Part shown: positions 16,280-57,167 of the stretch, one piece after another
Position numbering within the stretch: the first letter of the stretch is position 1
Layout: every line of letters begins with the position of its first letter
From: a virus
Virus record (IMG/VR): IMGVR_UViG_3300038426_000075
Coordinates: 1-64,000 of that record
Reading direction: 5' to 3' (one strand)
Length of the DNA: 64,000 bases
Translations under genes and position numbers: made by a program
Notes under the pieces: generated by a model
What the model was told of the DNA's origin: nothing
What the model saw: the letters and a program-made list of their open reading frames with translations, nothing else
Databases searched by the model: none

Positions 16280-16382
16280 TATTTACCTCCCTTGGTGCAT
16301 CCAATTGGTTGCAACTCTCTTTCCTTGAATTTCCCAAATCCATAGGGTCTAATATTCCTATGACATTAAATTTTTTATCCAA

Positions 16383-16655
16383 CTATCTTCCCCTTTTTTT
16401 CGCTTGCAGTGGTTTAGATTTTTTGATATTATGGTGCAAATCTTTATCATTATTAATAGGGAGTTTTTCGGGAGGCCAAATCTGGTGAACCGGTCGACCC
16501 ACGGCATCGGCGATCGCTTGTCGAATACGTGGATTTTTACGGAGGCCCTTGATAACAGAGTTGACGGCGGGAACTGTCATCTTCAATTTGTTGGCAATTG
16601 ATGTTTGGGTAACATCCAGCAGCTTCATGAGAATGATAATTTCTTTAGAGTTCAT
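16383..16655 (-). CDS. Cro/Ner-like HTH protein
   Basis: VTQTSIANKLKMTVPAVNSVIKG.RKNPRIRQAIADAVGRPVHQIWP; SD before ATG 16655. Confidence 0.85.
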   Translation of the reverse strand: MNSKEIIILMKLLDVTQTSIANKLKMTVPAVNSVIKGLRKNPRIRQAIADAVGRPVHQIWPPEKLPINNDKDLHHNIKKSKPLQAKKRGR

Positions 16656-16695
16656 AAGTTTCTTCCCCCTGTGATAAAAAGAATGGAGACAAGCC

Positions 16696-16944
16696 ATGTA
16701 TGCGCTCGTATTGATCGATATTTCCCCAAGATTCTTCGATAAGCTCGAATTATTGAGATTTTTAGAAAACATCGAAGAAAATGAGGCACAAGAGACAAAG
16801 GACTCAAAGATTCTCGAAGGCGTTTGGCTGATAGACCTAAGTAGACAACTATCTTTTCTCTGTAAAATCCTACGTGAGGTTCAAGGTCGTCATCTTTCAT
16901 ATAGGGTCTCCTTTTTCGAGAACAAACCGGAATTTATCATATGA
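16696..16944 (+). CDS. Small hypothetical protein inside the genetic switch
   Basis: 82-aa ORF with GGAG SD. Confidence 0.55.
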   Translation: MYALVLIDISPRFFDKLELLRFLENIEENEAQETKDSKILEGVWLIDLSRQLSFLCKILREVQGRHLSYRVSFFENKPEFII

Positions 16945-17008
16945 GAAGTTGCTTGGTTTTGGAGTTCATTCTGGTTAACTTTTAAAGCGTGTGTGACCAT
17001 GATTTAGA

Positions 17009-17057
17009 TATTTATCATTTTAGTTGTAATTTGTCAAGAAAAAAATATAACTAAAAT
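17009..17057 (-). promoter_or_regulatory. Lytic promoter and operator-like inverted repeat
   Basis: TTGACA (17032-17037) with 17-nt spacer to TAAATA; ATTTTAGTT (17017-17025) / AACTAAAAT (17049-17057) inverted pair in AT-rich divergent gap. Confidence 0.6.
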
Positions 17058-17074
17058 CATTTTTCTTGTAATGT

Positions 17075-17536
17075 ATGAAAACTAAAGAAGAAATACGCTC
17101 ACTTTTTTCAGCAAGATTACGTGAAATTGCCCAAAAAAGATTTGGTTATCAACCCGGAAAAGATCACGGAATGCGAACAGATATCGCAAATGAATTGAAG
17201 ATTAGTGTCGGAACGGTACAGCAGTGGTTTGATGAGGAAAAAGAAACTATGCCCGATGTTATGCAATTCCTTAAAATTCATGATGCCTTTGGAATTACCC
17301 CGAATGAACTTTTGGGGATTGAAGAGATACAACCTAAAGAATTCATTCCTCCTGTAGAAATTACAGAGGATTTTGTATCATTCCCAATACAAATATTTGA
17401 CTCAACCATTCAAACCGGTGGCCAATTCTTAGGGCAGGTCATCATTCACAAAAGGGTGTTTGGAAGAAGAAAAAACCTTGCTGCCGTTTACCTAAATGGG
17501 GGAAAAGAAATAAAAGTAGTGATTGTTGGAAAATGA
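17075..17536 (+). CDS. CI-like XRE repressor lacking an intact S24 peptidase domain
   Basis: HTH DIANELKISVGTVQQWF...MPD...FGITPNELLG; divergent from Cro-like gene. Confidence 0.85.
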   Translation: MKTKEEIRSLFSARLREIAQKRFGYQPGKDHGMRTDIANELKISVGTVQQWFDEEKETMPDVMQFLKIHDAFGITPNELLGIEEIQPKEFIPPVEITEDFVSFPIQIFDSTIQTGGQFLGQVIIHKRVFGRRKNLAAVYLNGGKEIKVVIVGK

Positions 17537-18300
17537 AAAGTATCTTAAAGGGCACAAAGAGAAAAACCCTACTTTCCGTATTGACAATCGTTGTCCTCTC
17601 TAGTTGTTCGGTCAATGATTTCTTTGGCCACCAAACCACACAATATATCGCCGTTAGAGAGGTAAAAGGCAAAAGTACGCTCAAAGGTACATACGATGTT
17701 GAGCGGGCACTTAGTGAGGGTGTTCCAGAAGAAGAGATAGCACGGTATCTTGCTATTACCCGCAACTTTGACGTTGATAGGTACATAAAGGCGGGCTTCA
17801 CATATAGGGAGATAATTGATTACCTTGCCAAGCAGCCTAAAATAGGCGGAGAAGTAAAGATAGAATGGAAACGTCACAAAATAGTGTACAAAGTCTATCC
17901 CGATAAACAGGATGTCGTCTATTGGGTAGAGACTTCCGATGGTAAAGAACGTTCTCCACTTTCTCGGGTTGGAAACTGCATTGTGGCGGATTCTGATAAT
18001 TGGGAGGGAGAGATGGATTATGGTTCTTGGCCCTGGCCAAGGAGAGTTGAAATTATTAATGGAAAGTCCAAATTTGATGGTCTTGAGTTGACGAAAGTTG
18101 GATGGTGGAAGTGGAATTTTGACAAGGAAAACTTTCAGGGTTCAGTAATTATCAGTACGACTTGGTTTGTGTGGAACAATCATTTGGTATGGATTCTATC
18201 GGGCATTGGGGTCCTTTTAATTATCCTATATGGTTGGCATTCCGATACCGAAGATAAGAAACGCAAGAGGCAGGAAGCAAGGCAAGCAAAGGAGGAATAG
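17533..18300 (+). CDS. Membrane lipoprotein carrying a copy of the ejection-protein N-terminal module; candidate superinfection exclusion
   Basis: Lipobox LSSC, C-terminal TM helix, aa 54-99 similar to N-terminus of 21152-26224 product. Confidence 0.75.
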   Translation: MKSILKGTKRKTLLSVLTIVVLSSCSVNDFFGHQTTQYIAVREVKGKSTLKGTYDVERALSEGVPEEEIARYLAITRNFDVDRYIKAGFTYREIIDYLAKQPKIGGEVKIEWKRHKIVYKVYPDKQDVVYWVETSDGKERSPLSRVGNCIVADSDNWEGEMDYGSWPWPRRVEIINGKSKFDGLELTKVGWWKWNFDKENFQGSVIISTTWFVWNNHLVWILSGIGVLLIILYGWHSDTEDKKRKRQEARQAKEE

Positions 18301-18304
18301 AGGA

Positions 18305-18577
18305 ATGAGAAAACCGAATTCGACTCAGAGAATATTTCAAGACAGGTTTATTGCGGAGGCAGAGCGGCGGCTGGGGATGGGTCGTTATCACCGAGGGTTT
18401 ATGACTGAGGTGACACGATCCCTCAAAATGAAGCAGGTCTCCGTGGTCCAGCGGTGGCTCGAAGGATGGATGCCACGGCTGCCCCATCTGTTAAAAATCT
18501 ACAGGGAGTGGGGAGTCACACCCAATAAATTGTTGGGGATTGAAGAGGAGTCACGATCCAGGCCAAAGCGGAAATGA
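18305..18577 (+). CDS. Second XRE HTH protein, paralogue of the repressor N-terminal domain
   Basis: VVQRWLEGWMP...LKIYREWGVTPNKLLGIEE vs TVQQWFDEEKETMP...LKIHDAFGITPNELLGIEE; SD before ATG 18305. Confidence 0.8.
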   Translation: MRKPNSTQRIFQDRFIAEAERRLGMGRYHRGFMTEVTRSLKMKQVSVVQRWLEGWMPRLPHLLKIYREWGVTPNKLLGIEEESRSRPKRK

Positions 18578-18601
18578 TTCGTTCCGCTCAAGGAGGTTTC
18601 T

Positions 18602-19048
18602 ATGAAAATTACAACCCTAAGTGCCTTTCTTATTGTCCTGCTTATTCTTCCTACCCCGATACTCGCTCAAAAAAATTACCTCATTATTGACGGGAAGAAA
18701 TACGAACTTGCTCCAGGACCAAGTTATTACGATGCCCATCCTGAAGAGAGAAACGCTACAACCCAACCCAACAAACCAATTGATGGCACTGGAACAAGAG
18801 AACAAGGGAATGAAGGAGGAAGCCATATCGATTACCCCTCGGCCCCTCCACCGCCACCCCCTTCATCTGCACCTCCTCCTCCATCTATGCGGATCGGCGT
18901 TCGTGGTGGAGTAATTGATGGCCAAACAGGGGATTTTTACCCACAAGTAAAAGGCGGTGTAGTTAATCCTCGAACCGGAGAATTTCTACCTGATGTTGAA
19001 AAAGGATATATTGATCTGGGAACAGGTGAATTCATCCCCAAGCGATAG
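18602..19048 (+). CDS. Exported Pro-rich protein carrying an ejection-protein peptide; candidate superinfection exclusion
   Basis: Signal peptide, PSYYDAHPEER motif, poly-Pro linker, three TG[DE]F.P repeats. Confidence 0.7.
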   Translation: MKITTLSAFLIVLLILPTPILAQKNYLIIDGKKYELAPGPSYYDAHPEERNATTQPNKPIDGTGTREQGNEGGSHIDYPSAPPPPPPSSAPPPPSMRIGVRGGVIDGQTGDFYPQVKGGVVNPRTGEFLPDVEKGYIDLGTGEFIPKR

Positions 19049-19051
19049 ATA

Positions 19052-20179
19052 ATGGCTTCAATCCAAAAATTCGCCAGGCTTGGCCACCGGATTTATTGGA
19101 GACTTTATCTTCCTGACGGCACATTTAAAGAAAAGTACAAAGCTTCCAGCTCCAAGACGGTCCTGCAGGAGATTCTTGCAGACATTATCAAGATCGAATC
19201 TCTTTCACGCCGGAGAGAACTATCGGGGCAGGATCTTGTCCGGGCCCTGAACATGGGGATCATCACTCGGGCCGAAATAGACTTCTTCAGACCTCACGTA
19301 GAACCCCTGGAACCACACTTTCTTGTGGAGTTGAGGCCGGAGTTCGAAAATCTCTCGAAAGCCCAATCAACAGCCCACCACACCCACATGGCCAACCTCT
19401 CCAAGGCAAACGTTATTGAGGAGTATTTCCGGGCCATTCCGATAAATGAGATCACGCCAGAGGCAATCGAAAGATTCAGGGTGGAACGGAAGCGAACGGT
19501 CACAAACACGACGGTCAACCACGACCTGAAGGTCCTCCGGAAGTATCTGGATATCGCCGTAAGCAAGAAATTGATCAAGAATAACTCGGCCAGAAAGACC
19601 ACACTTCTACGTGAACCAAAGGACAGAATTCCAAGGTGCTTCTACCCCGCTGAGTTAAAAACTTTCTTCCGGGGACTGAAAAGATTTAGACACCTCCTTT
19701 ATGGGGAGATGCCTTTTATTGTCCGTACCCTTATCTACACCGGCCTCAGAAGATCGGAACTTTGCAATCTGAAGCCCGAGAATATAAAGTTCCACCTTCG
19801 TCAGATCCATCTGATCGGCAAGGGCAGGAAGACCAGAATCGTAGGAATCCACCGATCACTTGTCAGGGAATTCAGAACCAGGATCAAAAAGGGTTACATC
19901 CTTCGACCCGGGATTGATCCGTCATCTATCAGCCATGCGTTTAAGAAAATGATTAGAGGTTTGGATCTTGCTGAAGCACTCACTCTGCATTCACTTCGTC
20001 ATACCTACATCTCTTATCTCCTTGAAAAAGGCGCCCCGACAAAGAAGGTCCAGGAGCACGCCGGCCACTTCAGCCTTGCCGTGACAGACCACTACACCCA
20101 TGCACTACCATCTGAGGTTGTGATTGAAGATATACTTGATTTTGAGGGTCCAAAAGTGGACAAAAGAGGCAAAAAATAG
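19052..20179 (+). CDS. int: Tyrosine integrase
   Basis: YTGLRRSEL, GKGRK, HSLRHTY, AGH, TDHY catalytic motifs. Confidence 0.95.
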   Translation: MASIQKFARLGHRIYWRLYLPDGTFKEKYKASSSKTVLQEILADIIKIESLSRRRELSGQDLVRALNMGIITRAEIDFFRPHVEPLEPHFLVELRPEFENLSKAQSTAHHTHMANLSKANVIEEYFRAIPINEITPEAIERFRVERKRTVTNTTVNHDLKVLRKYLDIAVSKKLIKNNSARKTTLLREPKDRIPRCFYPAELKTFFRGLKRFRHLLYGEMPFIVRTLIYTGLRRSELCNLKPENIKFHLRQIHLIGKGRKTRIVGIHRSLVREFRTRIKKGYILRPGIDPSSISHAFKKMIRGLDLAEALTLHSLRHTYISYLLEKGAPTKKVQEHAGHFSLAVTDHYTHALPSEVVIEDILDFEGPKVDKRGKK

Positions 20180-20203
20180 GGCTAAATAGGGTGAAAAAAT
20201 CGG

Positions 20204-20447
20204 TACTTTGGCGATACCAATTTTATAACAGTTCGATTTCATTAAATTGCCCCAGGCTTCCCAAGCCGAGGGTCGCGGGTTCGAACCCCGTTGCCCGCTC
20301 CACTAAAATCCCTAATAAAACCCACGAAATGGCCAATAATAAGATATCTTACGGATCAAACAACCCCAAGGATCATTTTCTATAATTTACTATTTTTTGG
20401 GTAAAAACTGGTTTTGGAGTGATTTCGTAGCGATACTTTGGCGATAC
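20204..20447 (+). repeat. Integrase arm-type direct repeats
   Basis: TACTTTGGCGATAC at 20204-20217 and 20434-20447; tandem GCGATAC at 20430 and 20441. Confidence 0.75.
20255..20302 (+). other. attP core: 3' half of tRNA-Gly(CCC)
   Basis: GGC-TTCCCAA-GCC anticodon arm, GGTTCGAACCC T arm, acceptor 3' strand ending CTCCA; 5' half absent. Confidence 0.9.
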
Positions 20448-20891: not shown

Positions 20892-21155
20892 CTACAGACC
20901 CACCATTTTGAGAAAAGCTAAGGCCTTCTCAATTTTTTTATGGAAATGCGAAAGTTCTGTAATTGTTTCGACAGATCTCTTAAAAGATAACTTGGTGTTA
21001 ATTGTTTTAAAGGAATACTCCATGGCCGTAGAAGCCTCCCTTATGCTCGCTATACATTCATAAATCAGCCCGAGGGAACGATAGAACTTAAACGGGAAGG
21101 TGATTTTTAAATAAATTATTTTTAATGCTTTCCCAAGCCGTTTATGATTCATCAT
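20892..21155 (-). CDS. Hypothetical protein
   Basis: ORF coupled to upstream stop. Confidence 0.4.
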   Translation of the reverse strand: MMNHKRLGKALKIIYLKITFPFKFYRSLGLIYECIASIREASTAMEYSFKTINTKLSFKRSVETITELSHFHKKIEKALAFLKMVGL

Positions 21156-24100
21156 AGTCCCATGCCAGGAGGAAGATAGGATGGCGCCCCCTGCCCCGGA
21201 GGATGAACCCTCTTTTTGTCGTTTTCGCCCCTACCCATAAAGGCCGGAATAGCAAATGGAATGGCAGAATAAACCGGAGGAATTTGTACTTTTTCGGCAG
21301 CATATTTTCCCATGGCATCTGCCAAATTGCTTTGTGCCTTTTTTATGTCTTTAAAGAATCTATTATTCAAAGGAATGAGTTTCCCAAGTCTTTTGACAAT
21401 CCGGTCAATGATGTTTTTTGCAACGTTTACTACCTTCTTGAACAAAGAAGGCTCCCGATCATGTAAGATGTTCCAAAAATCCTTATTCATGAACTGCTGG
21501 CCAGAAAAATCAGCATAGAGTTCTTCTTTCACTTCTTCAGCACTTTCAAACCTCGGCATCCCAGATTGTTTCTTAGACAGATTTAAACCAACACGGTATA
21601 CGGAAAAATCTTGAATGAGATCGTCAGTCGCATCTATAAATTTTTTATAGAGAGTAGGCTGCTCACTTTTTAAGGTGTGTATAAGTTCATGTCCTATCAC
21701 AAAAAGATGGGGAGCACTAGATTTTATATGGAGATATATGGTGTCTGGTTCTTCGGGAATTACGATGCCATTAAAGGAGACTACTTCTTTTGTATCAAAG
21801 AAGACCACTTTTTTGCCGAAGGTCCGTCCAAGTTCACTAATAGCCTTCCCACTCTTAGGCACACGGACCTCGGCCAGGGCATCATCAGCCAGTTTTCTTC
21901 CGGTTGACGATTCAATTTCGGATTTGAGCTTTTTGATGGCTTCTGTAATCCCAATTTTTTTGATTTTTGACTCATCGAAGGCTCCTTTCATTTGCGATAT
22001 TTCTTTTGTCTCAAATTCCTTTTCATGGGCTTGAGCATATTTAATGGCATCGCCTTCAGTGTTTCTTGTCCCTGCCAATTCACCATCGGGTCGATAAATA
22101 TCAAATTTACCGGCAACTTCCTGAATTTTGTACCCTTCTGGGAGTTCTATCTTCGAGACATCTGAAAATGGAAATCTTCCCTTATTCTCTTCCCACCACT
22201 TGGCTGCCTTTTCTTCCGGCATTATAGCTTTATTAAAACGGATAGCTTGTGTGACCTCATCTCCGGTAGTCTTATCCTTACCCATAATATAAGAAACACC
22301 ATTCGTGCGGGATTTTCTGCGAAAATAGGAGACCCCTTTTATGTTGGTGCTTGGAAGAAGTCTGAATCTTCCCTCGTTTTCAGTTGAGTTGGGATCGAAG
22401 GTAAAAGGACGGGATTCGCCTTTTTTCCAGTTACCCGCTTTCTCCTCCACTGGTGCTGGCTCCAACTTCACGCCCGCAAATTTCTTGCTGGCCTCAAACT
22501 TGGCGGGGTCTTCCCGATATTCGTGCTCATCCTGGCTGGATAGCTTGTGAGCATCGGGATACTTCATTCCCTGGTTTATTATCCTGTCCCGCTCGGTCCC
22601 CTCGTGGACGATGATGGCGGTGCGCTCTTCGGGACTGATCTGGTCATCAACGGCAACGGTATTTTTAGGAAACCACTTATAGGCCCCATCATTACCGCCT
22701 TCTGTCCAGCTTGAATCGACTTTCCGAATCATGTCACCATCTACAAGCCAAACCTGTGTTTTATCCTTGCCGATTGTTCCTAAAAGCTGTTTTTTGGCAT
22801 CTTCAATAAGCTGTGGATTTAGTTTTTTATCTGATTTTTGGGGAGGGTTGTCTCTCGTTCGTTCCCGTTGCTCGATGGCATTCCCTTGTTTAAGAGCTTC
22901 ATCGTATGACTTCCCCTCAGACATCAATTGTCTTTGTTTGGTCGCATTGTCCAATAGATAACCATAGTCTGCGTTCTTAATCTCTTTATCGAGCCAAATC
23001 TCATTCTCTGGAATGTAGGGAGAATTTTGATGGTAGGAAAAATTGGTAAACTCCTCGTCAATATTTTTTCGGATAAGATCCCCATCAACAATAAAAGCTG
23101 TGACAGGGCCTTCTTTTTTGTATTCTTTGGCGTTTACTTGGGTGTGAAGATCGGCGGGGGATATCTCGGCCAGGGGTTCTTTTACGACGGGGGAAGTTTC
23201 GGATTCGGTGAGAGCTTTCTTAATTGCTTCAAGGTCTGGAGGTCCCTCTTCAGTCTCAATAGTTTTTTGAGCCTCTCCAAGTCTTCTGGTGATATTTTCT
23301 TCGGAGATTCCTTTTCCACGCTGTTCCTCCTTCCAACCCATTATCTCATTATCAACGCTTGCTGTCAAGGATTGAATAGCTTCTTTTTTGGATGTCCATA
23401 AATCCGCTTCCGCCCGATCTTGGATAATGGCATTGGCTGTCTGTTTTACTCTCTCAAAAATCTGCTGTTGGCGAAGTCCTAACTTTTCACCATTTAAGCC
23501 TTTATTGATCGCCTTTATGGTTTCTTCCTTTCCGGCAGATATCCCACCTAACATTTGTTGAATCTTCATTGAAGAACCATATCGTCCTTCACCTTCAGCA
23601 AGAACTCCTCCAGCCTCACCACTTTTAATGATACCTTGGAGTTCGCGAATCGTACCAGCTAGTTCTTCACCTAAAGGTTCAGCAAATGGCAACCTTGGAT
23701 ACGCCTTCTCCCTTTCAGCCTGAACCGCAGCCTTACCCGCTTCACCTAAAGGTGTCCCTTCAAGGGTAGGCGTAGCTCCCTCTTTGGCACCTTTCATCTC
23801 CAAACCTTGTTTGATGCCAGGGAGAGCAAATTGATCTTTAGCGGTCGGGGAGAGTGCGGGTTTCTCTATTGGAGCAATAGGTGCAGGTGCCCCCTCGATT
23901 TTCTCTGCTGGTACGAATTCCCCCGTCTTCTTCATTGTATATCCACTTATGGCCTTCTCGGGATCCAGCCCTTCGTCAGCGATAATTTGACCATGAACTG
24001 AATCCGTATAGACCTTTCCGTCCTGCATCACAGCTACCTTATCAATCTCTGGATACTCTTCTGGCATGAGCTCAAGGTGCTGAGCCGTCGGGGGAATTGC

Positions 24101-26224
24101 CTGAGTTGCAAGTGATTGCAAGTCGGGGTAGTCGGCTAAAACTTCGGGGGAGACGGGTTTGCCTTTTTCAACAGCATCCTGCACTTCATATTGATGGAGT
24201 GATCTTGCCGTTTTCTTATCAAGAGTACCTTCTGGGTTGCTAGGATCAATTGAGCGGTCAACAAATTCCTTTTTTGTCATCTCCCACGGTTGCTTTCCTA
24301 CCATATCTGCCAGATTGACAGTTTCTTCAAATCCCTTCTCTTTATGGTGTCTAAGTTCGTGATCAAGAGCCCTTTGGAAACCTTGTCTACTTAAATCCTT
24401 TCTTAGATAGATATTGCCCTCTGCATCATTTGTCGAACCTAATCCAGTCCCCTCAACACCTTTTGGGAGTTCAACTTCTTCAACCTTATAAACCTTATGG
24501 CCTTCTACCTCAAAATAGTCCGTAGATTGATTAGGAACCTGGGATTTAAAGCGATTAAATAGAGAATCATAATTAATAACCCCCTCCTCACTCACTGGCA
24601 TGCCCTCTTTTGAGACTTCTTGACCAGCAAGGGGTTCGGTAGCCTCCATAATCGGAAATTCTTCGGGTGGAAGTTTGGCCGCTTCCTCCATATCTTTACG
24701 GGCTATTTCAGTAATAATATTCTCTTTTGGCTTCGCAACCGTCGGCATTTGCTGCCCCATCCCCATCATCTGGGGGATTGGTTGAGGAATAGGGGCTTGA
24801 ATGGGTGGTGCTGTCGGTGTTGGCTGTGGAGGTAGAGCAATTGGACCGACTCCCATCGGCAGAATTGGCTGAGGTGCTTCAATCGGTGGTGCCTCTGGCC
24901 GTGGAGCGATAGATGATGCCGGCGGCATGGTGGTTCCGACAGGTTCTGGTGTCTCGGTCCCAATTCCAGGAGGTCTTACCGGTTCTGGTTCTCCCGTAAT
25001 AGGGTTAATTTTAAACTCTGTTCCAACGGGAGCTTTTAGCCGCAAGATCGTCTTGGGTTTGGGTTCCATTAGCTGAAAACCTTGGCCTGGAGGCAATGCC
25101 AATTGAGCTCCTGCCTTTATTTCTGTAGCCGGTTGAACTGCTGGAGTCCCGGGGGCAGGAATCGTCGAGCCGACAACTTCTGGAACTTCCGGCGCCATCC
25201 CAGGAGGAGTAATTTGTGGACTCTCTGCGGGCTTGCCTGCCTCTGCAAAGGGAGGATATTCCTCTCCTTTGTTCCTTCGTCTCAGAGCCTCTTCCCTCCA
25301 CGATGGATTGTTCCAACGCCTTAGAACATCGCCTTCGGAATATCCCTTGTTCATCATGTCCTCAAGAGACTGTGTAACAAGACCACGTTCCTTATTTGTA
25401 AGGCTTCTAAGCCAAGGACCTATTGGCGTTTTTAAAAATCTGGTTAATACCGCTGGTAGTACTTCCTCCGCAATGGTACCAGCCGCTCTCATAGCAGTTG
25501 GAAAAGCTGCCCATTCCGCAGCAGTCATTGTTTCTTTTGCCAAGGATTCATAGGGAGAAATCTTCTTTTTCCCAGTAACCAATTCTTTCTCGATCTCTTT
25601 CAATTTCTCTGGATCAGTTGTCGTCCCAGGGGGGAAAAAGTCTCCCTTTAATTCTGCTCGACCTTCCTCTCCTGCATATTTCCCAAAGGGAATCGTAAAT
25701 TTTGCCACTTCCAATGCTGTCGGCGGAATCGCAGCCAAATAGGGATGGCGAGCAGCAAAGGGAGAAGTGACAACTTTAGGTTCGACAACGGGAGGCACCT
25801 TTGGTGTCGGCTTTACTGGCTCATGCGAAGGAATGGGTTCCTCTTTCGGAAATCCCGACAAATCAACTCCTGCTTCCGCAGGTGTTTCACGTGCAACCAC
25901 AGCTGTCATTGGAGAAGGCTTCGGTCTCTCTATCGGCTTCATGAGGTTCGGGTTGATCAAACCGGGAGGGGTGATAGGTGACACTGTTCGTTCCGGGACA
26001 AGAGGGGTAGGGGACTTCTCAACGATCGGTTTAGGCAAGGCTTCCTGTACGGTAGGTTTTGCTACAATACTCTTTTGAGGAGCGAGGTATTCGATGACCT
26101 CCCGATAGGGGACTCCTGCCTTCACAGCATCATCAAGCCGATAGTTTCTAGTTGCGGCCAGATGCTTAGCTATCTCTTCTTCTGGTACTCCATCCTTAAG
26201 TGCCTGCTCATAATTATATGGCAT
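21152..26224 (-). CDS. Large polyvalent / internal virion (ejection) protein with zincin-like domains
   Basis: 1690 aa, Pro-rich linkers, HELRH and HELIH...EELYAD motifs, tandem VDGD repeat; last large gene after tail genes. Confidence 0.75.
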   Translation of the reverse strand: MPYNYEQALKDGVPEEEIAKHLAATRNYRLDDAVKAGVPYREVIEYLAPQKSIVAKPTVQEALPKPIVEKSPTPLVPERTVSPITPPGLINPNLMKPIERPKPSPMTAVVARETPAEAGVDLSGFPKEEPIPSHEPVKPTPKVPPVVEPKVVTSPFAARHPYLAAIPPTALEVAKFTIPFGKYAGEEGRAELKGDFFPPGTTTDPEKLKEIEKELVTGKKKISPYESLAKETMTAAEWAAFPTAMRAAGTIAEEVLPAVLTRFLKTPIGPWLRSLTNKERGLVTQSLEDMMNKGYSEGDVLRRWNNPSWREEALRRRNKGEEYPPFAEAGKPAESPQITPPGMAPEVPEVVGSTIPAPGTPAVQPATEIKAGAQLALPPGQGFQLMEPKPKTILRLKAPVGTEFKINPITGEPEPVRPPGIGTETPEPVGTTMPPASSIAPRPEAPPIEAPQPILPMGVGPIALPPQPTPTAPPIQAPIPQPIPQMMGMGQQMPTVAKPKENIITEIARKDMEEAAKLPPEEFPIMEATEPLAGQEVSKEGMPVSEEGVINYDSLFNRFKSQVPNQSTDYFEVEGHKVYKVEEVELPKGVEGTGLGSTNDAEGNIYLRKDLSRQGFQRALDHELRHHKEKGFEETVNLADMVGKQPWEMTKKEFVDRSIDPSNPEGTLDKKTARSLHQYEVQDAVEKGKPVSPEVLADYPDLQSLATQAIPPTAQHLELMPEEYPEIDKVAVMQDGKVYTDSVHGQIIADEGLDPEKAISGYTMKKTGEFVPAEKIEGAPAPIAPIEKPALSPTAKDQFALPGIKQGLEMKGAKEGATPTLEGTPLGEAGKAAVQAEREKAYPRLPFAEPLGEELAGTIRELQGIIKSGEAGGVLAEGEGRYGSSMKIQQMLGGISAGKEETIKAINKGLNGEKLGLRQQQIFERVKQTANAIIQDRAEADLWTSKKEAIQSLTASVDNEIMGWKEEQRGKGISEENITRRLGEAQKTIETEEGPPDLEAIKKALTESETSPVVKEPLAEISPADLHTQVNAKEYKKEGPVTAFIVDGDLIRKNIDEEFTNFSYHQNSPYIPENEIWLDKEIKNADYGYLLDNATKQRQLMSEGKSYDEALKQGNAIEQRERTRDNPPQKSDKKLNPQLIEDAKKQLLGTIGKDKTQVWLVDGDMIRKVDSSWTEGGNDGAYKWFPKNTVAVDDQISPEERTAIIVHEGTERDRIINQGMKYPDAHKLSSQDEHEYREDPAKFEASKKFAGVKLEPAPVEEKAGNWKKGESRPFTFDPNSTENEGRFRLLPSTNIKGVSYFRRKSRTNGVSYIMGKDKTTGDEVTQAIRFNKAIMPEEKAAKWWEENKGRFPFSDVSKIELPEGYKIQEVAGKFDIYRPDGELAGTRNTEGDAIKYAQAHEKEFETKEISQMKGAFDESKIKKIGITEAIKKLKSEIESSTGRKLADDALAEVRVPKSGKAISELGRTFGKKVVFFDTKEVVSFNGIVIPEEPDTIYLHIKSSAPHLFVIGHELIHTLKSEQPTLYKKFIDATDDLIQDFSVYRVGLNLSKKQSGMPRFESAEEVKEELYADFSGQQFMNKDFWNILHDREPSLFKKVVNVAKNIIDRIVKRLGKLIPLNNRFFKDIKKAQSNLADAMGKYAAEKVQIPPVYSAIPFAIPAFMGRGENDKKRVHPPGQGAPSYLPPGMGL

Positions 26225-26226
26225 GT

Positions 26227-27900
26227 CTACTCACTTTCATAGCGGGAATGGTCAACAGGAACTCTTGTTGCTGCTGGTTTTTCTACCCTACCCGCAAATC
26301 CCAGTGGTGCAAGAACTTCTGGTTTCGTTCCAATCTCGGCAATTTTTCTTATTGGTCCCCCAACTTTCTTAGCGGCCCAACCATAAGTGTTCAGGAATTC
26401 CCCCACTGCTCTCGGAGAACTTGCCAAAAGAATAGGCCAAAATTTAGGATTTATGAATTTTAAAAGAGCCGCTCCACCACCTGCTGCGAGCACCTTTCCC
26501 ATTGATCCCCTTGGAATCCATTGTTTTCCCACATACCCAGCAACCTCAGCAGGGATATCAACCCCGGATTTATTCCCTAAAATCTGCATAAGATCTTTTC
26601 TCATCTCAAAGTTTTCTCTCAACGCTGAAGAGAGTCTCCGAAGAGTGTTATCAGCGGTTATTCTACCTATGGGGAAGGTCGCACCTTCTTTTTTTAACAT
26701 CAGGTTACTTTCTATATCTTTTATGAGATTGGTCGCTTCGGCGTATCCCTTTGTCATCTTTTCATATTCAGGTATTGCACCTTTGAGACCTTTGCTAAGA
26801 TTGTTCTCAAGTCGGGTTAAAAATACCTCCGCAGGACTTTGTTTTTCCACCTGATCTATGTATTTGCTCAATCTCTTTTTTAAATTATCGAGTCCCAATA
26901 CCGTATTATCTTCCCAGTTCGTAACGTCTTCAATTGCCCTTTGGACTACATCCCGGTTCTTAACAAGAGGGCTTTGACTAAAATCCAGCTTAGTCCTGGC
27001 GTGCGTGCCCTTCCATTGCATAGAGGTTCCTATCTGAAATTCATCTGGTCCCATTAGTTTAGCCAGCTCTTGGTCCAAACTGCTTCTTACCTGAGTAAAT
27101 GCTCCGGGGGTAGCCCTCACTTTCGCCAATTCAGTAGTGTAAGCACTTCCACGCTGATCCCTGAGACTTTGCAGAGCGTCTTTAGCGTGATCAACAACTT
27201 CTTCTCCCGTAAGCTTTCCCCTCATCGCCTTGGTAAATGCTTCACTCCCTTTAGCCGCTTCCTCAATAAATCCTGGCCCTCCTCCTGTAAGAGCTCCGAC
27301 AGCTTCCTTTGTGGCTTTTCCAACGGCACCCACTATTGGTTTCGCAACCTTCAGGGGTAGGGTTAACGGATCCGTAACCGTTGCCGCAGTCTCCAATACC
27401 TTAGCCGTTCTACCTAACCCAGCAAGTTTTGCACCTTTTCCAGCCAACCCAAGCCCCCCAGATGCAAGTAGAGCAGCATCCACTGGTTTCTCATAAAGGT
27501 AATCAAATGCCATCCCTGGTATTTTGAGAGGGCTTTGATAGGCTTTGACAATGGGTTTTGAAACTTTCTCAAATGCCGCTTGCGCTTCTGGCGTGGCTGG
27601 TTCACCTGTGACCTTTTCCAATCCTCCTCTTATTATCTGGCCCGCCGCCTCTCCTACATTTTCAGCCGTTCGAAATGGGTGAGTAACGGCCGTAACGAGT
27701 CCCTTAGCGACATCAGCCACATTGGTTCCGACATTGCTTACAAACCCGCCAATGGATTTCCCGGGCGGCGCAGGCGGTCTCGGTCCAGTAGTTTTTGTCT
27801 GTTCGATTTGATTAATTAAGGCAGAATCAGTAACCGCTTGCCCTTTATTTGCCTCTAATTGTTTAATAAGTTCAGGATCAGTAACCGCACCATTTGCCAT
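26227..27900 (-). CDS. Putative DNA ejection/transfer protein
   Basis: Ala/Gly-rich helical protein, AVTD..LI N-terminal repeat, C-terminal SSPR.VGE; position in podoviral ejection block. Confidence 0.7.
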   Translation of the reverse strand: MANGAVTDPELIKQLEANKGQAVTDSALINQIEQTKTTGPRPPAPPGKSIGGFVSNVGTNVADVAKGLVTAVTHPFRTAENVGEAAGQIIRGGLEKVTGEPATPEAQAAFEKVSKPIVKAYQSPLKIPGMAFDYLYEKPVDAALLASGGLGLAGKGAKLAGLGRTAKVLETAATVTDPLTLPLKVAKPIVGAVGKATKEAVGALTGGGPGFIEEAAKGSEAFTKAMRGKLTGEEVVDHAKDALQSLRDQRGSAYTTELAKVRATPGAFTQVRSSLDQELAKLMGPDEFQIGTSMQWKGTHARTKLDFSQSPLVKNRDVVQRAIEDVTNWEDNTVLGLDNLKKRLSKYIDQVEKQSPAEVFLTRLENNLSKGLKGAIPEYEKMTKGYAEATNLIKDIESNLMLKKEGATFPIGRITADNTLRRLSSALRENFEMRKDLMQILGNKSGVDIPAEVAGYVGKQWIPRGSMGKVLAAGGGAALLKFINPKFWPILLASSPRAVGEFLNTYGWAAKKVGGPIRKIAEIGTKPEVLAPLGFAGRVEKPAATRVPVDHSRYESE

Positions 27901-27902
27901 GG

Positions 27903-30764
27903 CTATTCTCCTTCTGGGAACCACTGACCATTGCGCTTAATATAATTTTTGCCACCAACCGTACTTCTTTCTTCGCCCCCCACTACTGGTGCTCCCACAC
28001 CCGCAGGATTCCCACCAAAATCAGCGGCACGTGACCCCGCTGCTCCACCTGGCCTAACGTTTTTTGGTTCACCGGGCAGAGATGGAATCTTTCCCACTGA
28101 CTCCTGTACCGATGAGTCCAATGCATCTATCTTATTCTGCATTTCTGATTTCAAGAATTTACTTACTTCCACAAGGGCCTTATGAGTAAAACCAGCTTCA
28201 ATAAATTTATTGGCAATAGCTCTCTGCTCATTCTGGATAACTGCCCCTCCAATACCCATTGATCCCATCATCCTCGCATATTCGGTTACTACCGTTTGAA
28301 CCGCATCGTACAACTTGATGGCATTTGGATCGCTTAATAATCTTATTTGTCCGGTACGAATAGCATCATTTAAGACCGGGATTGATGTTCTCGGGAGGTT
28401 CTTTGAAATATCAACCATTAAGTTTATATTCCTATCAACCATTCCTTCAAAGGCCCCTGCATTTGCCCTTAGTTTTATCAGACCAGCAGTTGCCTCTTTC
28501 TGTCCCTTGAGAACCATCTGATTGGCCAGAATCATTTTATCTCCCATTCCCTCTTCTTTTGCCACACGTCCAGCAACTTTATAGAATTCCATCATGGCGA
28601 TTGAGCCACCCATACCTGGGAATCTGGGTGGTTCACCGCCTCGCAACCACATTCGGGCCGAAAGTTCTAAGGCATTTTTCATTTCAGGAGTAGAAATCTG
28701 CCCTATTGAAACAGAGGCAATGTTCGGAGGGATAACTGCCGGAACCCATTTATTTCCAGCCCCCAGGGTTGCCGAAGGTACAAATCCTTCAGGCTTTCCC
28801 ATCTTTTGCCATGTATCTTTGGCCTCCTTGATGGCTTCATTCTTATCTGGATAACCCTTCTGTCCTTCTCCCTTAACTTCTGCCTGCTTGGCTAAAATCT
28901 CACCGGGATAAGGTTCTCTATTAGTTATTCCCTTATTTATAAGATCTTGCTTTACCGCAGCTGTTTCCAACCCAAGTTGAGTCAGGGGTGCCGTTTTCCT
29001 CATTCCCCTTGCCTCAGCCGCAGCAACTCTCTCCTCTGACGTGAAAATTTTCTCTGGTATTCCCGCAGTCGTCCCGGTTAGACGTGCTAACTGCTCTGTA
29101 AGTATTGGAATATTCTTTAATGCCGCATCACGCTGTGCCCTTGCCGTCTTGGGATTCTGAGACAACCCATAGCCCTGAGCAATGTTTTTGGCGTCATCAA
29201 GAGATTTCTGGATTGCATCTATTGAAGATTTAGTCTCCCCTTTGGCCATCTCCATGAAGCGTTCTTCGGGGTGGACATCGTAGTAGGTTGGTTCTGGACC
29301 CAATGAAGCTAACGCTTCTTCTCTTCTGGTTTTTGTCCCCCTCTCTAACGTTGGCCTTAACGTCTCCAATGCCTCTTCCTGGGTAGGACGAACCCATCCT
29401 TTAGGAGTTGTAATTCCACCTTGACCTTCTGCACTGCGTATGGAATAACGGGTTTCTCCAGAGGGAAGAACTTCTTTATTAATATCAGAAAGGTTTCCCG
29501 ATATACCGCCCTCTACCGGTTTGGTGGGTTCAGTCCCTGCGACCGGTGTCTGTTCCACCTTTTGAGCCTTGGGAACAATCACAGTTGGCACACGAGAGGA
29601 AGCAAGAGATTCTATCGGAAACGCTGTTTTTAGTAGTGCTACACGTCTTTTGCGTTCTTCTTCCGTCATCCCTTCCTCAAGATTAGGAGAAGTAGCCCCT
29701 CCAACATCCCTTGACAATAGTGGTGTCATACCAGGAGCTCCCGATGCCGCTTTTAAACGCTCATATAAATCTGGCGCCTGGGCAATTCCGTACTTCTTAT
29801 TGTAAGCGGCCAACTGATCGGAACCAAACACGGGGGATCCCTTATTCTCCTTAAATGGAGGAGGGGTCAATTCCGGTGATGAAGCTTTTGGTGGAGGTGG
29901 CGGCGTTGCCGTATCGAGTTCTTCTTCTTCAGGTTTCCAGATACGCTGAGGAGCGTATGAGGCTAAAGAAAGTGTGGATGTCAATGGTAGAGGCTTCGGT
30001 TCTAACGACTCCAAATTAGAAACCCATGGCGAGACATGGATAGGAGTAGACTTTAATAATGATGTGTTACGTCCCGCTTCAATTCCTTGTTGGGTGGAAG
30101 CTCCCAAATTTTCATAAGAGGTTTCTTTAAAAAGGCTTGGATTGACTTCTCCACCCTCTTGCTTCGGGATAAGTGGCATTGTTGATCCAGCTTCCGCAGG
30201 TCCTGTCGTTGATGTTTGCTTCCCTTCCGGGGCAAAAGAACTCAACCCTCCCTCCGACCTACCAGCTTTCATTCCGGGTCGGTAGTATATTGATTGATCG
30301 CTGAAAGACGGGTGCCCTGGTAATTTATAGGTATCTGGTAAATGTTCCGTTGTACTCCTATGTCCTTTTAGCCAAGCTCCTCGAGTGTCGTAAAAGTGTC
30401 TCGGATCATCTGGATTTGGATTGAGGCCCATATTCTTTGCACGCTCCGCATACCATCCCTGAAAATTCTTTTCCATCTCGGGCGTAAATGAGGACTTCCA
30501 GTCCGGGGGTTGCCATCCAGGGCCTACTTCTCCCCCGTCTTGTCTCGATTCCAACGGTATGACATTTCCTTTTTTTGCAGGGAAGTATACTCCAGGAGCT
30601 GTTACCACTTCTGGATTCGGCCTTCCGTCGGGCTTCGTCTCGGCGATCGTATAACCATGTGTCGGCTTCGGCACTTTTGGAGGCCTCGGCTCCTTCAGGA
30701 TATCCGAGAGGATATCAACCAGTCTCACATTCGTCCGTTTGTGCCAGTCCTGCGAAAGTTCCAT
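27903..30764 (-). CDS. Putative DNA ejection / internal virion protein
   Basis: 953 aa, low-complexity N half, helical C half, repeated QxGGEV motif; position in ejection block. Confidence 0.65.
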   Translation of the reverse strand: MELSQDWHKRTNVRLVDILSDILKEPRPPKVPKPTHGYTIAETKPDGRPNPEVVTAPGVYFPAKKGNVIPLESRQDGGEVGPGWQPPDWKSSFTPEMEKNFQGWYAERAKNMGLNPNPDDPRHFYDTRGAWLKGHRSTTEHLPDTYKLPGHPSFSDQSIYYRPGMKAGRSEGGLSSFAPEGKQTSTTGPAEAGSTMPLIPKQEGGEVNPSLFKETSYENLGASTQQGIEAGRNTSLLKSTPIHVSPWVSNLESLEPKPLPLTSTLSLASYAPQRIWKPEEEELDTATPPPPPKASSPELTPPPFKENKGSPVFGSDQLAAYNKKYGIAQAPDLYERLKAASGAPGMTPLLSRDVGGATSPNLEEGMTEEERKRRVALLKTAFPIESLASSRVPTVIVPKAQKVEQTPVAGTEPTKPVEGGISGNLSDINKEVLPSGETRYSIRSAEGQGGITTPKGWVRPTQEEALETLRPTLERGTKTRREEALASLGPEPTYYDVHPEERFMEMAKGETKSSIDAIQKSLDDAKNIAQGYGLSQNPKTARAQRDAALKNIPILTEQLARLTGTTAGIPEKIFTSEERVAAAEARGMRKTAPLTQLGLETAAVKQDLINKGITNREPYPGEILAKQAEVKGEGQKGYPDKNEAIKEAKDTWQKMGKPEGFVPSATLGAGNKWVPAVIPPNIASVSIGQISTPEMKNALELSARMWLRGGEPPRFPGMGGSIAMMEFYKVAGRVAKEEGMGDKMILANQMVLKGQKEATAGLIKLRANAGAFEGMVDRNINLMVDISKNLPRTSIPVLNDAIRTGQIRLLSDPNAIKLYDAVQTVVTEYARMMGSMGIGGAVIQNEQRAIANKFIEAGFTHKALVEVSKFLKSEMQNKIDALDSSVQESVGKIPSLPGEPKNVRPGGAAGSRAADFGGNPAGVGAPVVGGEERSTVGGKNYIKRNGQWFPEGE

Positions 30765-55748: not shown

Positions 55749-57167
55749 CTAAAAGTGAAAGTCGTCTCCCTTCATGGCGTTCACTTCTTTGATAATTTGA
55801 AGCACATCCGTCTCGAACTTTGCAGGAAACGAGCTATTGGACATCTCGATCTGGGAAGCGATCTTACCGGCCGCATCCACTGCGGCTTTCGGAGTCTTCC
55901 CGTGGCCCATGGCGGTCGCAACTACCTGATCGCCGGGAACAAACCAATAGTCTCCCGCCTTCCTTACGATGCGCCTAAAGCCCATGTCTTTTCTTATTTC
56001 TTGAGGAAAGTGGATCACCTCCCATGATTTGATATCGTCGGTGTAAACGCCGACCTGTGTGACGTATCCAGGATCCACTTCGGCCCGAACGTCCTGACCG
56101 GCCGCAATCTTGTAGGTATATTCGGGATAATTCTTTATGAATCTGGATTGGATCGCACCGCAGGGCCACGCATCACGAGAGGTTGGATCGTGGACTCTAA
56201 CTTTCCTTCCGTCCCAAAAGAATTCGAAGCTGATATTCCCATGGTAACCAGACTTGATCAGGGAAGGCTTTACTTTGTTGAGAATATGCTCATCGATCCC
56301 ATTTTCTTCCACCCAAACTCCGATGGTTCCCTCTCCTTTGACTTCTATCGTGTAGAGGAAGGGCCGGATATAATCCCTTCCATTGAAACCTACGTCAACA
56401 CCCAATTCGAGGCCTGGACACGCACGCTGGATCAGGATCTCCATGGTGGTAAGATATGGCCCAAAACCGGCCTGTGTAAGAGCCACGAGGGCCTGTGTTC
56501 GGGTCTTTACCCCCTTCCCCGTCTCTTTATTGCCTCGATATTCGCCAACCTTCGGGAAGAAGAGCGTCTTTCCATCCTCGTTCTTTTCGATGTAATCAAG
56601 GCACTCATCCAAACCATGAACCACGACACCATCAGGGACCCCCACACCCATCTCTTGGAGCCTCTGCCATCCCTTCACACGATTGTTTTCATTCTCTGCC
56701 CACCACGCAGAAGGTCCATAAACGTCTTTGCCTTCTCCACGCCAGATATCGGCATCCTTGCCAAAGCAACAGTCGGTAATGACAACAAAATCCTTGGAGG
56801 CAGCCTCCATCATGCTATCCACCTTATGGAGTCCCTTAAACCCATCTCCTGAAATTTTGTTCTCAATGGACGGGTAGGCCGCCGCGCCGGCAATAAAATA
56901 ATAGACTTCGAACTCCTTCATCAGTGCAAGGGCATGATCAATACCCAGGTTCGTATCGATGAAGCCAACGGTCCGCGGCATCCCATGTTCTCGCTTAAGC
57001 ATAGGAAGAGCTTTGGTCGCTTTTGCTGTCTGATAATTGGCGATTTCTGCATAGGAATATCCTTCTTTGTGCGCCTCTTCGACCTTAAAACCCGTAAATC
57101 CAGCGAGATAAAAAGCTATCTCCCGGTATGAATGACCCTCTTTTCTTTGGCCTTCAACATCGTACAT
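55749..57167 (-). CDS. PurD-like ATP-grasp enzyme with N-terminal ejection-protein-type module
   Basis: VYGPS....ENNR..G...QEMGV.VP, TGKGV, GLELGVD; aa 2-47 match the shared YDVE..G..EIA.YLA module. Confidence 0.7.
   Translation of the reverse strand: MYDVEGQRKEGHSYREIAFYLAGFTGFKVEEAHKEGYSYAEIANYQTAKATKALPMLKREHGMPRTVGFIDTNLGIDHALALMKEFEVYYFIAGAAAYPSIENKISGDGFKGLHKVDSMMEAASKDFVVITDCCFGKDADIWRGEGKDVYGPSAWWAENENNRVKGWQRLQEMGVGVPDGVVVHGLDECLDYIEKNEDGKTLFFPKVGEYRGNKETGKGVKTRTQALVALTQAGFGPYLTTMEILIQRACPGLELGVDVGFNGRDYIRPFLYTIEVKGEGTIGVWVEENGIDEHILNKVKPSLIKSGYHGNISFEFFWDGRKVRVHDPTSRDAWPCGAIQSRFIKNYPEYTYKIAAGQDVRAEVDPGYVTQVGVYTDDIKSWEVIHFPQEIRKDMGFRRIVRKAGDYWFVPGDQVVATAMGHGKTPKAAVDAAGKIASQIEMSNSSFPAKFETDVLQIIKEVNAMKGDDFHF

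What the first reader, a model, noticed from the sequence alone, without database searches (positions are those of the whole stretch)
17075..19048. Candidate decoy immunity system: tandem [XRE regulator + exported ejection-protein mimic] cassettes in the lysogeny module
Seen: between the switch and int the order is XRE-A (17075), lipoprotein (17533), XRE-B (18305, paralogue of A), exported protein (18602). Each exported protein contains a close copy of a segment from a different large late protein in the ejection block of the same phage (1690-aa and 953-aa products). Known: podoviral ejection proteins assemble a trans-envelope conduit, and P22 SieA excludes superinfection at that step. Inference: the lysogen places copies of ejectosome interaction motifs in the periplasm, to poison conduit assembly or occupy the host docking site. 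I know no described Sie protein built from pieces of the phage's own ejection proteins. Two independent matches in the same architecture make chance unlikely.
Basis: partly seen in the sequence, partly recalled or inferred. Interest (0 to 1): 0.93.

Follow-up and report, generated by a model that had tools for sequence, protein, structure and literature searches.

The report
Prophage envelope proteins copying ejection-protein segments
A temperate peat phage carries, in the operon with its repressor and integrase, two exported proteins that each hold a conserved copy of a piece of a different large internal virion protein, which fits an untested way of blocking rival phages by mimicry.

Summary
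The + strand operon reads XRE-A, lipoprotein, XRE-B, exported protein, integrase, attP. Lipoprotein residues 54-104 match residues 3-53 of the 1690-aa late protein (59% identity, E 2e-16). The exported protein's match to the 953-aa protein is only 11 of 15 residues in this genome. At family level it is clear homology (52% over 65 aa, E 1e-18; hhalign 95.6%).

New findings:
- The lipoprotein's copy is a widespread, uncatalogued N-terminal tag: 579 protein clusters, and the few with a named family include internal virion, ejection and polyvalent proteins.
- When not N-terminal, the tag usually follows a lipobox, signal peptide or membrane helix, in several scaffolds that share only the tag.
- The lipoprotein family has members with and without the tag.
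- A close relative with an identical XRE-A lacks both genes, so they are swappable accessory genes, not duplicated two-gene cassettes.
- The likely host is a diderm Thermodesulfobacteriota.

The function was not tested: no RNA data were found and the complex prediction gave no answer. Superinfection exclusion by mimicry is the best reading (about 0.4). It would be a new variant of a known kind.

The parts
16383..16772 (-). Divergent HTH regulator (Cro-like side of the switch)
   Evidence: PHROG transcriptional repressor families phrog_769 and phrog_1468, E 2e-6 and 5e-6; weak Pfam HTH_35 and HTH_3
17075..17536 (+). XRE-A, CI-like regulator, 153 aa, first gene of the + strand lysogeny operon
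   Evidence: phrog_8, phrog_2967 and phrog_4, regulator/repressor, E 1e-8 to 9e-5. 100% identical copy in relative G001.
17533..18300 (+). Lipoprotein, 255 aa: lipobox (Cys25 at 17605-17607), tag, beta-rich core, C-terminal membrane helix (about 18175-18231) and basic tail
   Evidence: Sequence features. Ten homologues with conserved Cys and core. No Pfam, PHROG, NCBIfam or PADLOC family.
17692..17844 (+). Tandem two-repeat tag inside the lipoprotein (residues 54-104)
   Evidence: 59% identical to p1690 residues 3-53, E 2e-16. AF2 pLDDT 79-93, four short helices. Absent from 3 of 10 family members.
18305..18577 (+). XRE-B, 90-aa HTH paralogue of XRE-A
   Evidence: 36% identity over 86 aa, E 1e-10. 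Directly follows XRE-A in G001.
18602..19048 (+). Sec-exported 148-aa protein: signal peptide 18602-18667, p953-like segment, Pro-rich linker 18842-18886, three TG[DE]F.P repeats 18896-19045
   Evidence: Sequence. Family of 11 proteins.
18707..18817 (+). Segment homologous to the middle of p953 (residues 36-72; core PSYYDAHPEER)
   Evidence: 11/15 identical to p953 488-502. hhalign of the families: 95.6%, E 1.2e-8. Longer matches in relatives, E down to 1e-18.
19052..20179 (+). Tyrosine integrase
   Evidence: PF00589 E 1.8e-21; phrog_1 E 4e-43
20255..20302 (+). attP core, identical to the 3' end of a tRNA-Gly(CCC) gene
   Evidence: Depth spike with tRNA-like loose ends in four peat runs. Sequence. 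48-bp identity to five MAGs, four of them titled Thermodesulfobacteriota, Syntrophaceae or Deltaproteobacteria.
21152..26224 (-). 1690-aa late protein, last gene of the structural block, with the tag at residues 3-53 (26066-26218)
   Evidence: Homologous tags head giant proteins of 1213-4452 aa. BFVD nearest folds of the tag are an LPD-containing polyvalent protein and an LT_GEWL protein.
26227..27924 (-). 565-aa late protein between p953 and p1690
   Evidence: Only a weak hit to a tape-measure PHROG, E 1e-3
27903..30764 (-). 953-aa late protein; the segment copied into the exported protein lies at residues 488-534 (29163-29303), with HPEE invariant across the family
55749..57167 (-). 472-aa protein abutting the portal gene, with the same tag at residues 2-52 (57012-57164)
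   Evidence: 45% identity to the lipoprotein tag. No family or solved-structure hit.

Best explanation
This is the lysogeny operon of a temperate phage that integrates into tRNA-Gly of a diderm Thermodesulfobacteriota host.

Two accessory gene slots lie between the CI-like regulator and the integrase. Each holds an envelope protein. One is a lipoprotein with a second, C-terminal membrane anchor. The other is a Sec-exported soluble protein. Each presents to the periplasm a conserved copy of a short segment of a different large internal virion protein of the same phage lineage:
- the N-terminal two-repeat tag of the 1690-aa protein;
- the HPEER segment from the middle of the 953-aa protein.

The most likely function is superinfection exclusion at the DNA-entry step. 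The periplasmic copies would compete with the matching segments of incoming ejected proteins for their partner, which could be a host envelope component or another ejected protein. The trans-envelope conduit would then fail to form.

Shown: the anatomy, the homologies, the modular gain or loss of the segments, and the moron-like placement. Inferred: the periplasmic location (from sequence signals), expression in the lysogen (from operon position), and the whole exclusion mechanism.
For: Homology of both segments, with old, protein-level conservation.

A profile of the tag finds 579 representative clusters. In 133 of 156 examined it starts within the first 12 residues. Most of 69 carriers scanned match no named family. 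The single PHROG hits that do occur include internal virion protein, DNA transfer protein, DNA ejection protein and internal virion protein with endolysin domain, and one carrier has Pfam LPD23. The nearest predicted viral folds are a polyvalent protein and a lytic transglycosylase protein.

Of the 23 internal tags, most follow a lipobox, signal peptide or membrane helix, in at least five scaffolds that share only the tag. One further family has the same anchor-tag-anchor layout.

The lipoprotein core family exists with the tag (7 members) and without it (3). Distant members of the exported family keep only HPER.

The lipoprotein tags nest inside the clade of this lineage's giant-protein tags. 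They look mosaic with them: for example, repeat 2 of P0007 is 88% identical to giant P0011 but 67% to its sister lipoproteins.

The genes are tightly packed, with one start/stop overlap, in the + strand operon XRE-A ... int. Relative G001 has an identical XRE-A but other small membrane or exported proteins in these slots.

From the literature, the known exclusion proteins Ltp and SieA act at this step. Ltp is a lysogeny-module lipoprotein whose repeat domains bind the incoming tape measure protein (PMC3952083, PMC10883804).

The host is a diderm, judged from the attP match.
Against: There are no functional data of any kind.

The tag's own role and partner are unknown. It also heads proteins with GNAT, DnaJ or FtsK-gamma domains and the 472-aa gene beside the portal. 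It may therefore be a capsid-packaging or portal-docking signal whose partner is never in the periplasm.

The match of this phage's own exported protein to its own p953 is short, 11 of 15 residues.

That p1690 and p953 are ejected is inferred from context only; they have no PHROG or Pfam family.

A single origin of the lipoprotein tags is not rejected (AU p 0.14), so repeated exchange is suggestive only.

The accessory proteins in the same slots of G001 show no similarity to G001 virion proteins.

Lipoprotein homologues also occur outside lysogeny operons.
Confidence: 0.4

Rival explanations
1. Shared envelope-targeting modules without exclusion. The tag and the HPEER segment bind some envelope component (peptidoglycan, a membrane or a periplasmic protein). 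Ejected proteins and prophage envelope proteins both use them simply to localise. The prophage proteins would then do something else, such as lysogenic conversion, envelope remodelling or a fitness factor.
For: The tag is found both on proteins that must cross the envelope and on membrane-anchored proteins. Some tag carriers have cell-wall hydrolase domains: PHROG endolysin and internal virion protein with endolysin domain, and LT_GEWL in BFVD. Lipoprotein homologues sit in varied contexts, after a terminase in L002 and in a prim-pol/integrase element in L004.
Against: No similarity to any known wall- or membrane-binding domain in Pfam. Most tag carriers lack a signal peptide, and some have cytoplasmic-type domains such as GNAT, DnaJ and FtsK-gamma. 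Occupying the same ligand would in any case tend to interfere with incoming phage, so this rival shades into the main reading.
Confidence: 0.22
2. Domain shuffling with no functional link. The tag is a promiscuous small helical module, for example a packaging or oligomerisation signal, that recombination has dropped into many genes. The copies in the exported proteins are incidental or serve as spacers. The short HPEER match is a relic.
For: The tag occurs in 579 clusters on proteins of 44-4452 aa with very varied partners. The lipoprotein core functions in nature without it. Intragenomic repeats invite recombination.
Against: Two unrelated exported proteins in adjacent slots both draw on the three-gene late block, while only 16 non-self pairs in the whole genome score E<0.01. 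Both segments are conserved at protein level through heavy synonymous change. HPE(E)R is the best conserved element of both families. Anchored display of the tag recurs in scaffolds that share nothing else.
Confidence: 0.15
3. The lipoprotein is a unimolecular spanin, a lysis protein like phage T1 gp11. It would have an outer-membrane lipid anchor at the N-terminus, an inner-membrane helix at the C-terminus and a beta-rich periplasmic span.
For: The architecture fits: lipobox with Ser at +2, a predicted beta-rich middle and a C-terminal helix. What a u-spanin looks like is taken from my own knowledge, not from a tool.
Against: The gene's start overlaps the stop of the CI-like regulator, on the strand opposite all late genes. 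The complete relative G001 lacks the gene.
Confidence: 0.05

Closest known systems
Ltp of Streptococcus thermophilus phage TP-J34 (superinfection exclusion lipoprotein)
   Same: It is encoded in the lysogeny module and expressed from the prophage. It has a lipid anchor, a spacer and a tandem pair of small helical repeat domains outside the cytoplasmic membrane. The repeats block DNA injection by binding a virion protein of the incoming phage, the tape measure protein (PMC3952083).
   Different: No sequence relation: Pfam Lipoprotein_Ltp was not hit. Ltp is not reported as derived from a virion protein. The protein here has an added beta-rich core and a C-terminal membrane helix, and its host is a diderm.
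P22 SieA
   Same: A prophage-expressed envelope protein that blocks DNA delivery. Escape mutations lie in the ejection proteins gp16 and gp20, so it acts on the ejection-protein conduit (PMC10883804).
   Different: SieA is an integral inner-membrane protein and is not reported to resemble the ejection proteins. Here the candidates are a lipoprotein and a soluble exported protein that copy segments of the virion proteins.
Polyvalent proteins and packaged effectors of phages (Iyer et al. 2017, PMC5512222)
   Same: p1690 and its tag-bearing relatives are giant multi-module late proteins encoded at the end of the structural block. One tag carrier has Pfam LPD23, and the best BFVD fold match is an LPD-containing protein.
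   Different: My term searches of that paper, and Pfam, gave no N-terminal two-repeat tag and no exported copies of it. p1690 itself has no LPD or enzyme domain hit above threshold.
Other envelope-level exclusion proteins (T4 Imm and Sp, T5 Llp, phi80 Cor, HK97 gp15)
   Same: Small phage-encoded membrane or lipoproteins that stop entry of related phages. This comparison rests on my own knowledge plus the review PMC11436027.
   Different: They act by receptor blocking, lysozyme inhibition or altering the entry site. The review contains no decoy-type mechanism.

Membership tests
Ltp-type Sie lipoproteins (Pfam PF07553) | Sequence match to the Ltp repeat domain | tested here: not met
   Pfam scan of the lipoprotein at E<=0.1 gave only a sub-threshold DUF5338 hit
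Ltp-type Sie lipoproteins (Pfam PF07553) | Lipoprotein encoded in the lysogeny module with tandem small helical repeats outside the membrane | tested here: met
   Lipobox Cys25 conserved in 9 of 10 homologues. The gene lies between the CI-like regulator and int. The tag is two helix-turn-helix-like hairpins, pLDDT 84.
Superinfection exclusion proteins (functional class) | Expressed from the prophage | not testable with these tools
   No RNA run holds the stretch. Operon position is the only hint.
Superinfection exclusion proteins (functional class) | Blocks infection after adsorption | not testable with these tools
   Needs a bench assay. The host is known only from MAGs.
P22 SieA family | Polytopic inner-membrane protein homologous to SieA | not tested
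   No SieA model was searched by name. The PHROG, Pfam, NCBIfam and PADLOC scans gave no family. The architecture differs: a lipoprotein with one helix, and a soluble exported protein.
Phage ejection / internal virion proteins (for p1690 and p953) | Encoded at the distal end of the structural block and homologous to known internal virion or ejection proteins | tested here: inconclusive
   The position fits. p1690 and p953 hit no PHROG. Other tag carriers do hit internal virion, DNA transfer and DNA ejection PHROGs.
Polyvalent proteins (Iyer et al. 2017) | Several effector or LPD domains in one giant polypeptide | tested here: inconclusive
   p1690 has only a sub-threshold BRX hit. LPD23 was found in one other tag carrier. 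The BFVD top match is an LPD protein, but only over the tag.
Unimolecular spanins | Located in the lysis cassette and expressed late | tested here: not met
   The gene's start overlaps the regulator's stop on the + strand. Holin-like and lipoprotein candidates lie at 69.5-75.7 kb.

The most novel reading that the evidence does not exclude
Temperate phages protect their lysogens with periplasmic decoys built from pieces of their own ejected proteins, and this is a general strategy. The N-terminal tag of internal virion and polyvalent proteins has been captured repeatedly by unrelated membrane-anchored or exported scaffolds. A second, independent capture (the HPEER segment of the 953-aa protein) sits in the next gene slot of the same operon. 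The decoys would follow the virion proteins by recombination, giving exclusion specific to the lineage.
Probability: 0.3. Interest if true: 0.9.

Novelty: new variant of a known kind. Interest (0 to 1): 0.72.

Why it matters
If the reading is right, it adds a mechanism to superinfection exclusion: competitive mimicry of the invader's own delivery proteins. It would also give a sequence rule for finding such genes, namely an exported or anchored protein in a lysogeny module that shares a segment with a late virion protein.

Whatever the function turns out to be, two things are worth having. First, a widespread N-terminal tag of packaged phage proteins (579 clusters, no Pfam family, no solved fold) is now defined well enough to study. 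Second, the segments copied into the exported proteins mark where the functionally important surfaces of two otherwise opaque giant virion proteins are likely to lie.

Tried and rejected
The 92,287-bp contig holding P0002, P0160 and P0172, and the roughly 14.7-kb contigs holding P0006 and P0162, could not be fetched. Same-genome co-variation could therefore not be tested.
- Scans of viral contigs and genome contigs with the lipoprotein family found nothing. A viral-contig scan with p953 alone found nothing. The exported-family alignment was too variable to scan with.
- tblastn of the p1690 tag against GenBank phages: no match. blastn of 16000-21000 against the same collection gave only a 55-nt hit.
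- Fold search with the whole lipoprotein model matched only its C-terminal helix to coiled coils, and the core is modelled below pLDDT 50. The tag alone has no PDB fold match at E<=0.001.
- Complex prediction of the lipoprotein tag with the p1690 tag: no answer, score 0.00. This is not evidence either way.
- No RNA holder is listed for the operon. The contig lay-down showed no joints or cassette variants and only patchy cover.
- ESM Atlas search for p953 gave nothing above chance level.
- PDB sequence searches for p472 and p1690 gave no hits. PADLOC and NCBIfam gave no families.
- The promoter and terminator scan was not above shuffles.
- The similarity between the GG.VNP motifs of p953 and the TGEF.P repeats was considered (E 0.086) and not counted.
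- P0168 was set aside as a likely chimeric or mis-started ORF.
Full report
SETTING

The window is the first 64 kb of an 88,038-bp virus record. Almost all genes run on the - strand. They include a portal (57167-58975), a major head protein (45339-46298), connector and virion proteins, and then a run of large genes with no family. These end with 953-, 565- and 1690-aa proteins.

The stretch 17075-20179 is a tightly packed + strand operon. XRE-A is a CI-like regulator. The lipoprotein's start overlaps the XRE-A stop. XRE-B, the exported protein and a tyrosine integrase follow. Upstream lie divergent HTH genes.

Just after int, 20255-20302 is the 3' end of a tRNA-Gly(CCC) gene. Four peat metagenome runs pile up there with tRNA-like loose ends. 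The 46-nt pattern searched occurs exactly in five MAGs. Four are titled Thermodesulfobacteriota, Syntrophaceae or Deltaproteobacteria, and one of these comes from SPRUCE peat. The phage is therefore temperate, its likely host is a diderm, and 'periplasm' is a meaningful term here.

THE OBSERVATION

XRE-A and XRE-B are paralogues (36% over 86 aa, E 1e-10).

The lipoprotein has a basic N-terminus, a hydrophobic stretch and LSSC. The Cys is kept in 9 of 10 homologues. There is a C-terminal hydrophobic helix followed by a Lys/Arg-rich tail. The 148-aa protein has a Sec-type signal peptide.

Lipoprotein residues 54-104 align without gaps to residues 3-53 of the 1690-aa protein: 30/51 identical, E 2e-16. 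DNA identity is 63%, and 16 of the 30 identical residues use different codons. The copy is therefore old and held by selection on the protein.

The second match is PSYYDAHPEER against PTYYDVHPEER, 11/15 with flanks. Taken alone it is weak. Among 128 non-overlapping ORFs of the genome, only 16 non-self pairs reach E<0.01, and these two are among them.

THE SECOND MATCH IS REAL HOMOLOGY

The exported protein has ten relatives and the 953-aa protein has ten. In other members the shared stretch is much longer:
- P0162 (152 aa, exported) against P0174 (1104 aa): 52% over 65 aa, E 1e-18.
- P0163 against P0176: 49% over 49 aa, E 6e-13.
- P0163, P0164 and P0165 against this phage's own p953: 43-46% over 46 aa, E 1e-8 to 1e-9.
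- Profile against profile: 95.6% probability, E 1.2e-8.

HPEE is invariant in the p953 family. HPE(E)R is the best conserved element of the exported family, and its distant 116-121-aa members keep only HPER. This phage's own exported protein carries a shortened version of the segment.

The stretch before the motif differs between exported proteins in step with p953 subtypes. P0162 has the 'NPYTNRVSGT..V.PG' form of P0174 and P0177. P0159 has the 'L.P.P' form of P0170-P0173. That looks like more than one exchange.

WHAT THE TAG IS

A profile of the three copies in this genome found 579 representative clusters at E<=1e-3 among 1.84 billion proteins, with lengths of 44 to 4452 aa. In 133 of the 156 examined it starts within the first 12 residues. 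The consensus is a two-fold repeat, roughly FDxxGARKAGYSDxEIAxYLA.

Pfam has no model for it. Modelled alone it forms four short helices with mean pLDDT 84 and has no PDB fold match. The only good matches among predicted viral structures are an LPD-containing polyvalent protein and a lytic-transglycosylase protein, with query TM-scores of 0.81 and 0.74.

Most of 69 carriers scanned match no named family. The single PHROG hits that occur include internal virion protein, DNA transfer protein, DNA ejection protein, internal virion protein with endolysin domain, endolysin and tape measure. Single Pfam hits include LPD23, GNAT, DnaJ and FtsK-gamma.

In this phage and in relative G001 the tag also heads a 472/475-aa protein next to the portal. 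The tag is thus a portable N-terminal module of proteins that, where identifiable, include packaged or ejected ones. Its own role is unknown; packaging signal, docking module and envelope binder all remain possible.

ANCHORED COPIES RECUR

Of the 23 carriers with an internal tag, most have it directly after a membrane signal:
- the lipoprotein family;
- a separate family (P0053, P0071, P0141) that, like the lipoprotein, has hydrophobic anchors on both sides of the tag;
- a signal peptide, poly-Pro, tag protein (P0029);
- single-helix proteins (P0056, P0066);
- membrane proteins P0019 (which appears to start mid-protein) and P0079 (four predicted helices).

Outside the tag these groups share no similarity with the lipoprotein.

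Within the lipoprotein family, seven members have the tag and three lack it cleanly. A tagless member sits in a prim-pol plus integrase element (L004). A tagged one sits after a terminase in another phage (L002). The tag is therefore an add-on to a mobile envelope-protein scaffold.

RELATION TO THE COGNATE VIRION PROTEIN

In a tree of 27 tags, the lipoprotein tags fall in three groups inside the clade formed by the giant proteins of this phage lineage. None of 200 bootstrap trees unites them. The AU test does not reject a single origin (p 0.14).

Half-repeat comparisons look mosaic:
- Repeat 1 of this phage's lipoprotein shares GVPEEEIA only with its own p1690 and giant P0011. Giants P0012 and P0017 carry near-identical forms of it.
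- Repeat 2 of P0007 is 88% identical to giant P0011 but 67% to its sister lipoproteins.
- Repeat 1 of P0003 is closest to giant P0016.

The copies clearly derive from the lineage's virion proteins rather than from host proteins. Ongoing exchange is suggested, not proven.

THE CASSETTES ARE ACCESSORY SLOTS

Relative G001 is a 145-kb record rated complete. It has a 100% identical XRE-A and a p953 that is 83% identical over the best-matching segment. There, XRE-B follows XRE-A after 21 bases with its own ribosome-binding site. There is no lipoprotein. The place of the exported protein is taken by an 89-aa membrane protein and a 90-aa signal-peptide protein, followed by a similar integrase. Those two proteins resemble no G001 virion protein. 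G002, also rated complete, has neither gene and no integrase.

The regulators are the fixed frame and the envelope proteins are swappable accessory genes. They are not duplicated [XRE + decoy] units.

MECHANISM

Known exclusion genes occupy this kind of place and act at this step. Ltp of TP-J34 is a lysogeny-module lipoprotein whose tandem repeat domains bind the tape measure protein of the incoming phage (PMC3952083). P22 SieA blocks the conduit made by ejection proteins, with escape mutations in gp16 and gp20 (PMC10883804).

Here both envelope proteins expose copies of conserved segments of two late giant proteins. The most economical reading is that they compete with the incoming proteins for whatever those segments bind. 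I put this at about 0.4.

Main rivals:
- The segments are shared envelope-localising modules and the proteins have another role (0.22).
- The sharing is incidental shuffling of a promiscuous module (0.15).
- The lipoprotein is a unimolecular spanin (0.05). This is weak, given the overlap with the repressor gene, a separate lysis region at 69.5-75.7 kb and its absence from G001.

No expression data exist. The single complex prediction, tag with tag, gave no answer.

NOVELTY

The SIE review I searched has no decoy mechanism. Pfam, PHROGs, NCBIfam and PADLOC hold none of the four proteins beyond the HTH and integrase.

I class this as a new variant of a known kind: envelope-level superinfection exclusion, here apparently built by copying the phage's own virion segments. 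The tag itself is an undescribed, common module.

Other first-stage notes on this same window had already listed the two matches and the tagged 472-aa gene. I checked them here.

Noticed in passing
window 20255-20302: attP core identical to the 3' end (anticodon arm to CCA) of tRNA-Gly(CCC). It is exact in five MAGs, four titled Thermodesulfobacteriota, Syntrophaceae or Deltaproteobacteria, one of them from SPRUCE peat. This points to the host.
   Followed up: yes
window 26066-26218, 57012-57164, 17692-17844; P0011-P0158: An uncatalogued two-repeat N-terminal tag (about 48 aa, consensus FDxxGARKAGYSDxEIAxYLA twice) heads 579 protein clusters of 44-4452 aa. It has no Pfam model and no solved fold.
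   Followed up: partly
window 55749-57167 (-): The 472-aa tagged protein abuts the portal gene, sharing base 57167. Another first-stage note calls it an ATP-grasp ligase. Pfam, PHROG, NCBIfam and PDB sequence searches gave nothing here, so that identity is unconfirmed.
   Followed up: partly
window 27903-30764 (-), residues about 70-82, 197-209, 348-360: Three invariant motifs of the form [RK]Q.GG.V.P recur in the N-terminal half of the p953 family. They faintly resemble the KGGVVNP.TGEF repeats of the exported protein (E 0.086 only).
   Followed up: partly
L020 9601-9870 and 10233-10505 (G001); G000 64536-64682: Relative G001 fills the same operon slots with an 89-aa membrane protein and a 90-aa signal-peptide protein. 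The 89-aa protein has a 45%-identical N-terminal match at 64.5 kb of this genome.
   Followed up: partly
L004 9959-10522 and surroundings: A tagless lipoprotein homologue lies in a small integrative element with an NrS-1-type prim-pol and an integrase. Rubrerythrin and thioesterase genes lie upstream of it.
   Followed up: partly
L002 9058-9468; P0020: A DnaJ-domain protein follows the lipoprotein homologue in L002. The unrelated tag carrier P0020 has tag, membrane helix, coiled coil and DnaJ domain in one chain. This may be a recurring link between the tag and J-domains.
   Followed up: no
window 13472-14068 and 14125-14505 (-): Two more signal-peptide proteins (198 and 126 aa, Gly-rich) lie upstream of the early region. 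G001 has signal-peptide proteins of 227 and 130 aa with similar N-termini at the matching place.
   Followed up: no
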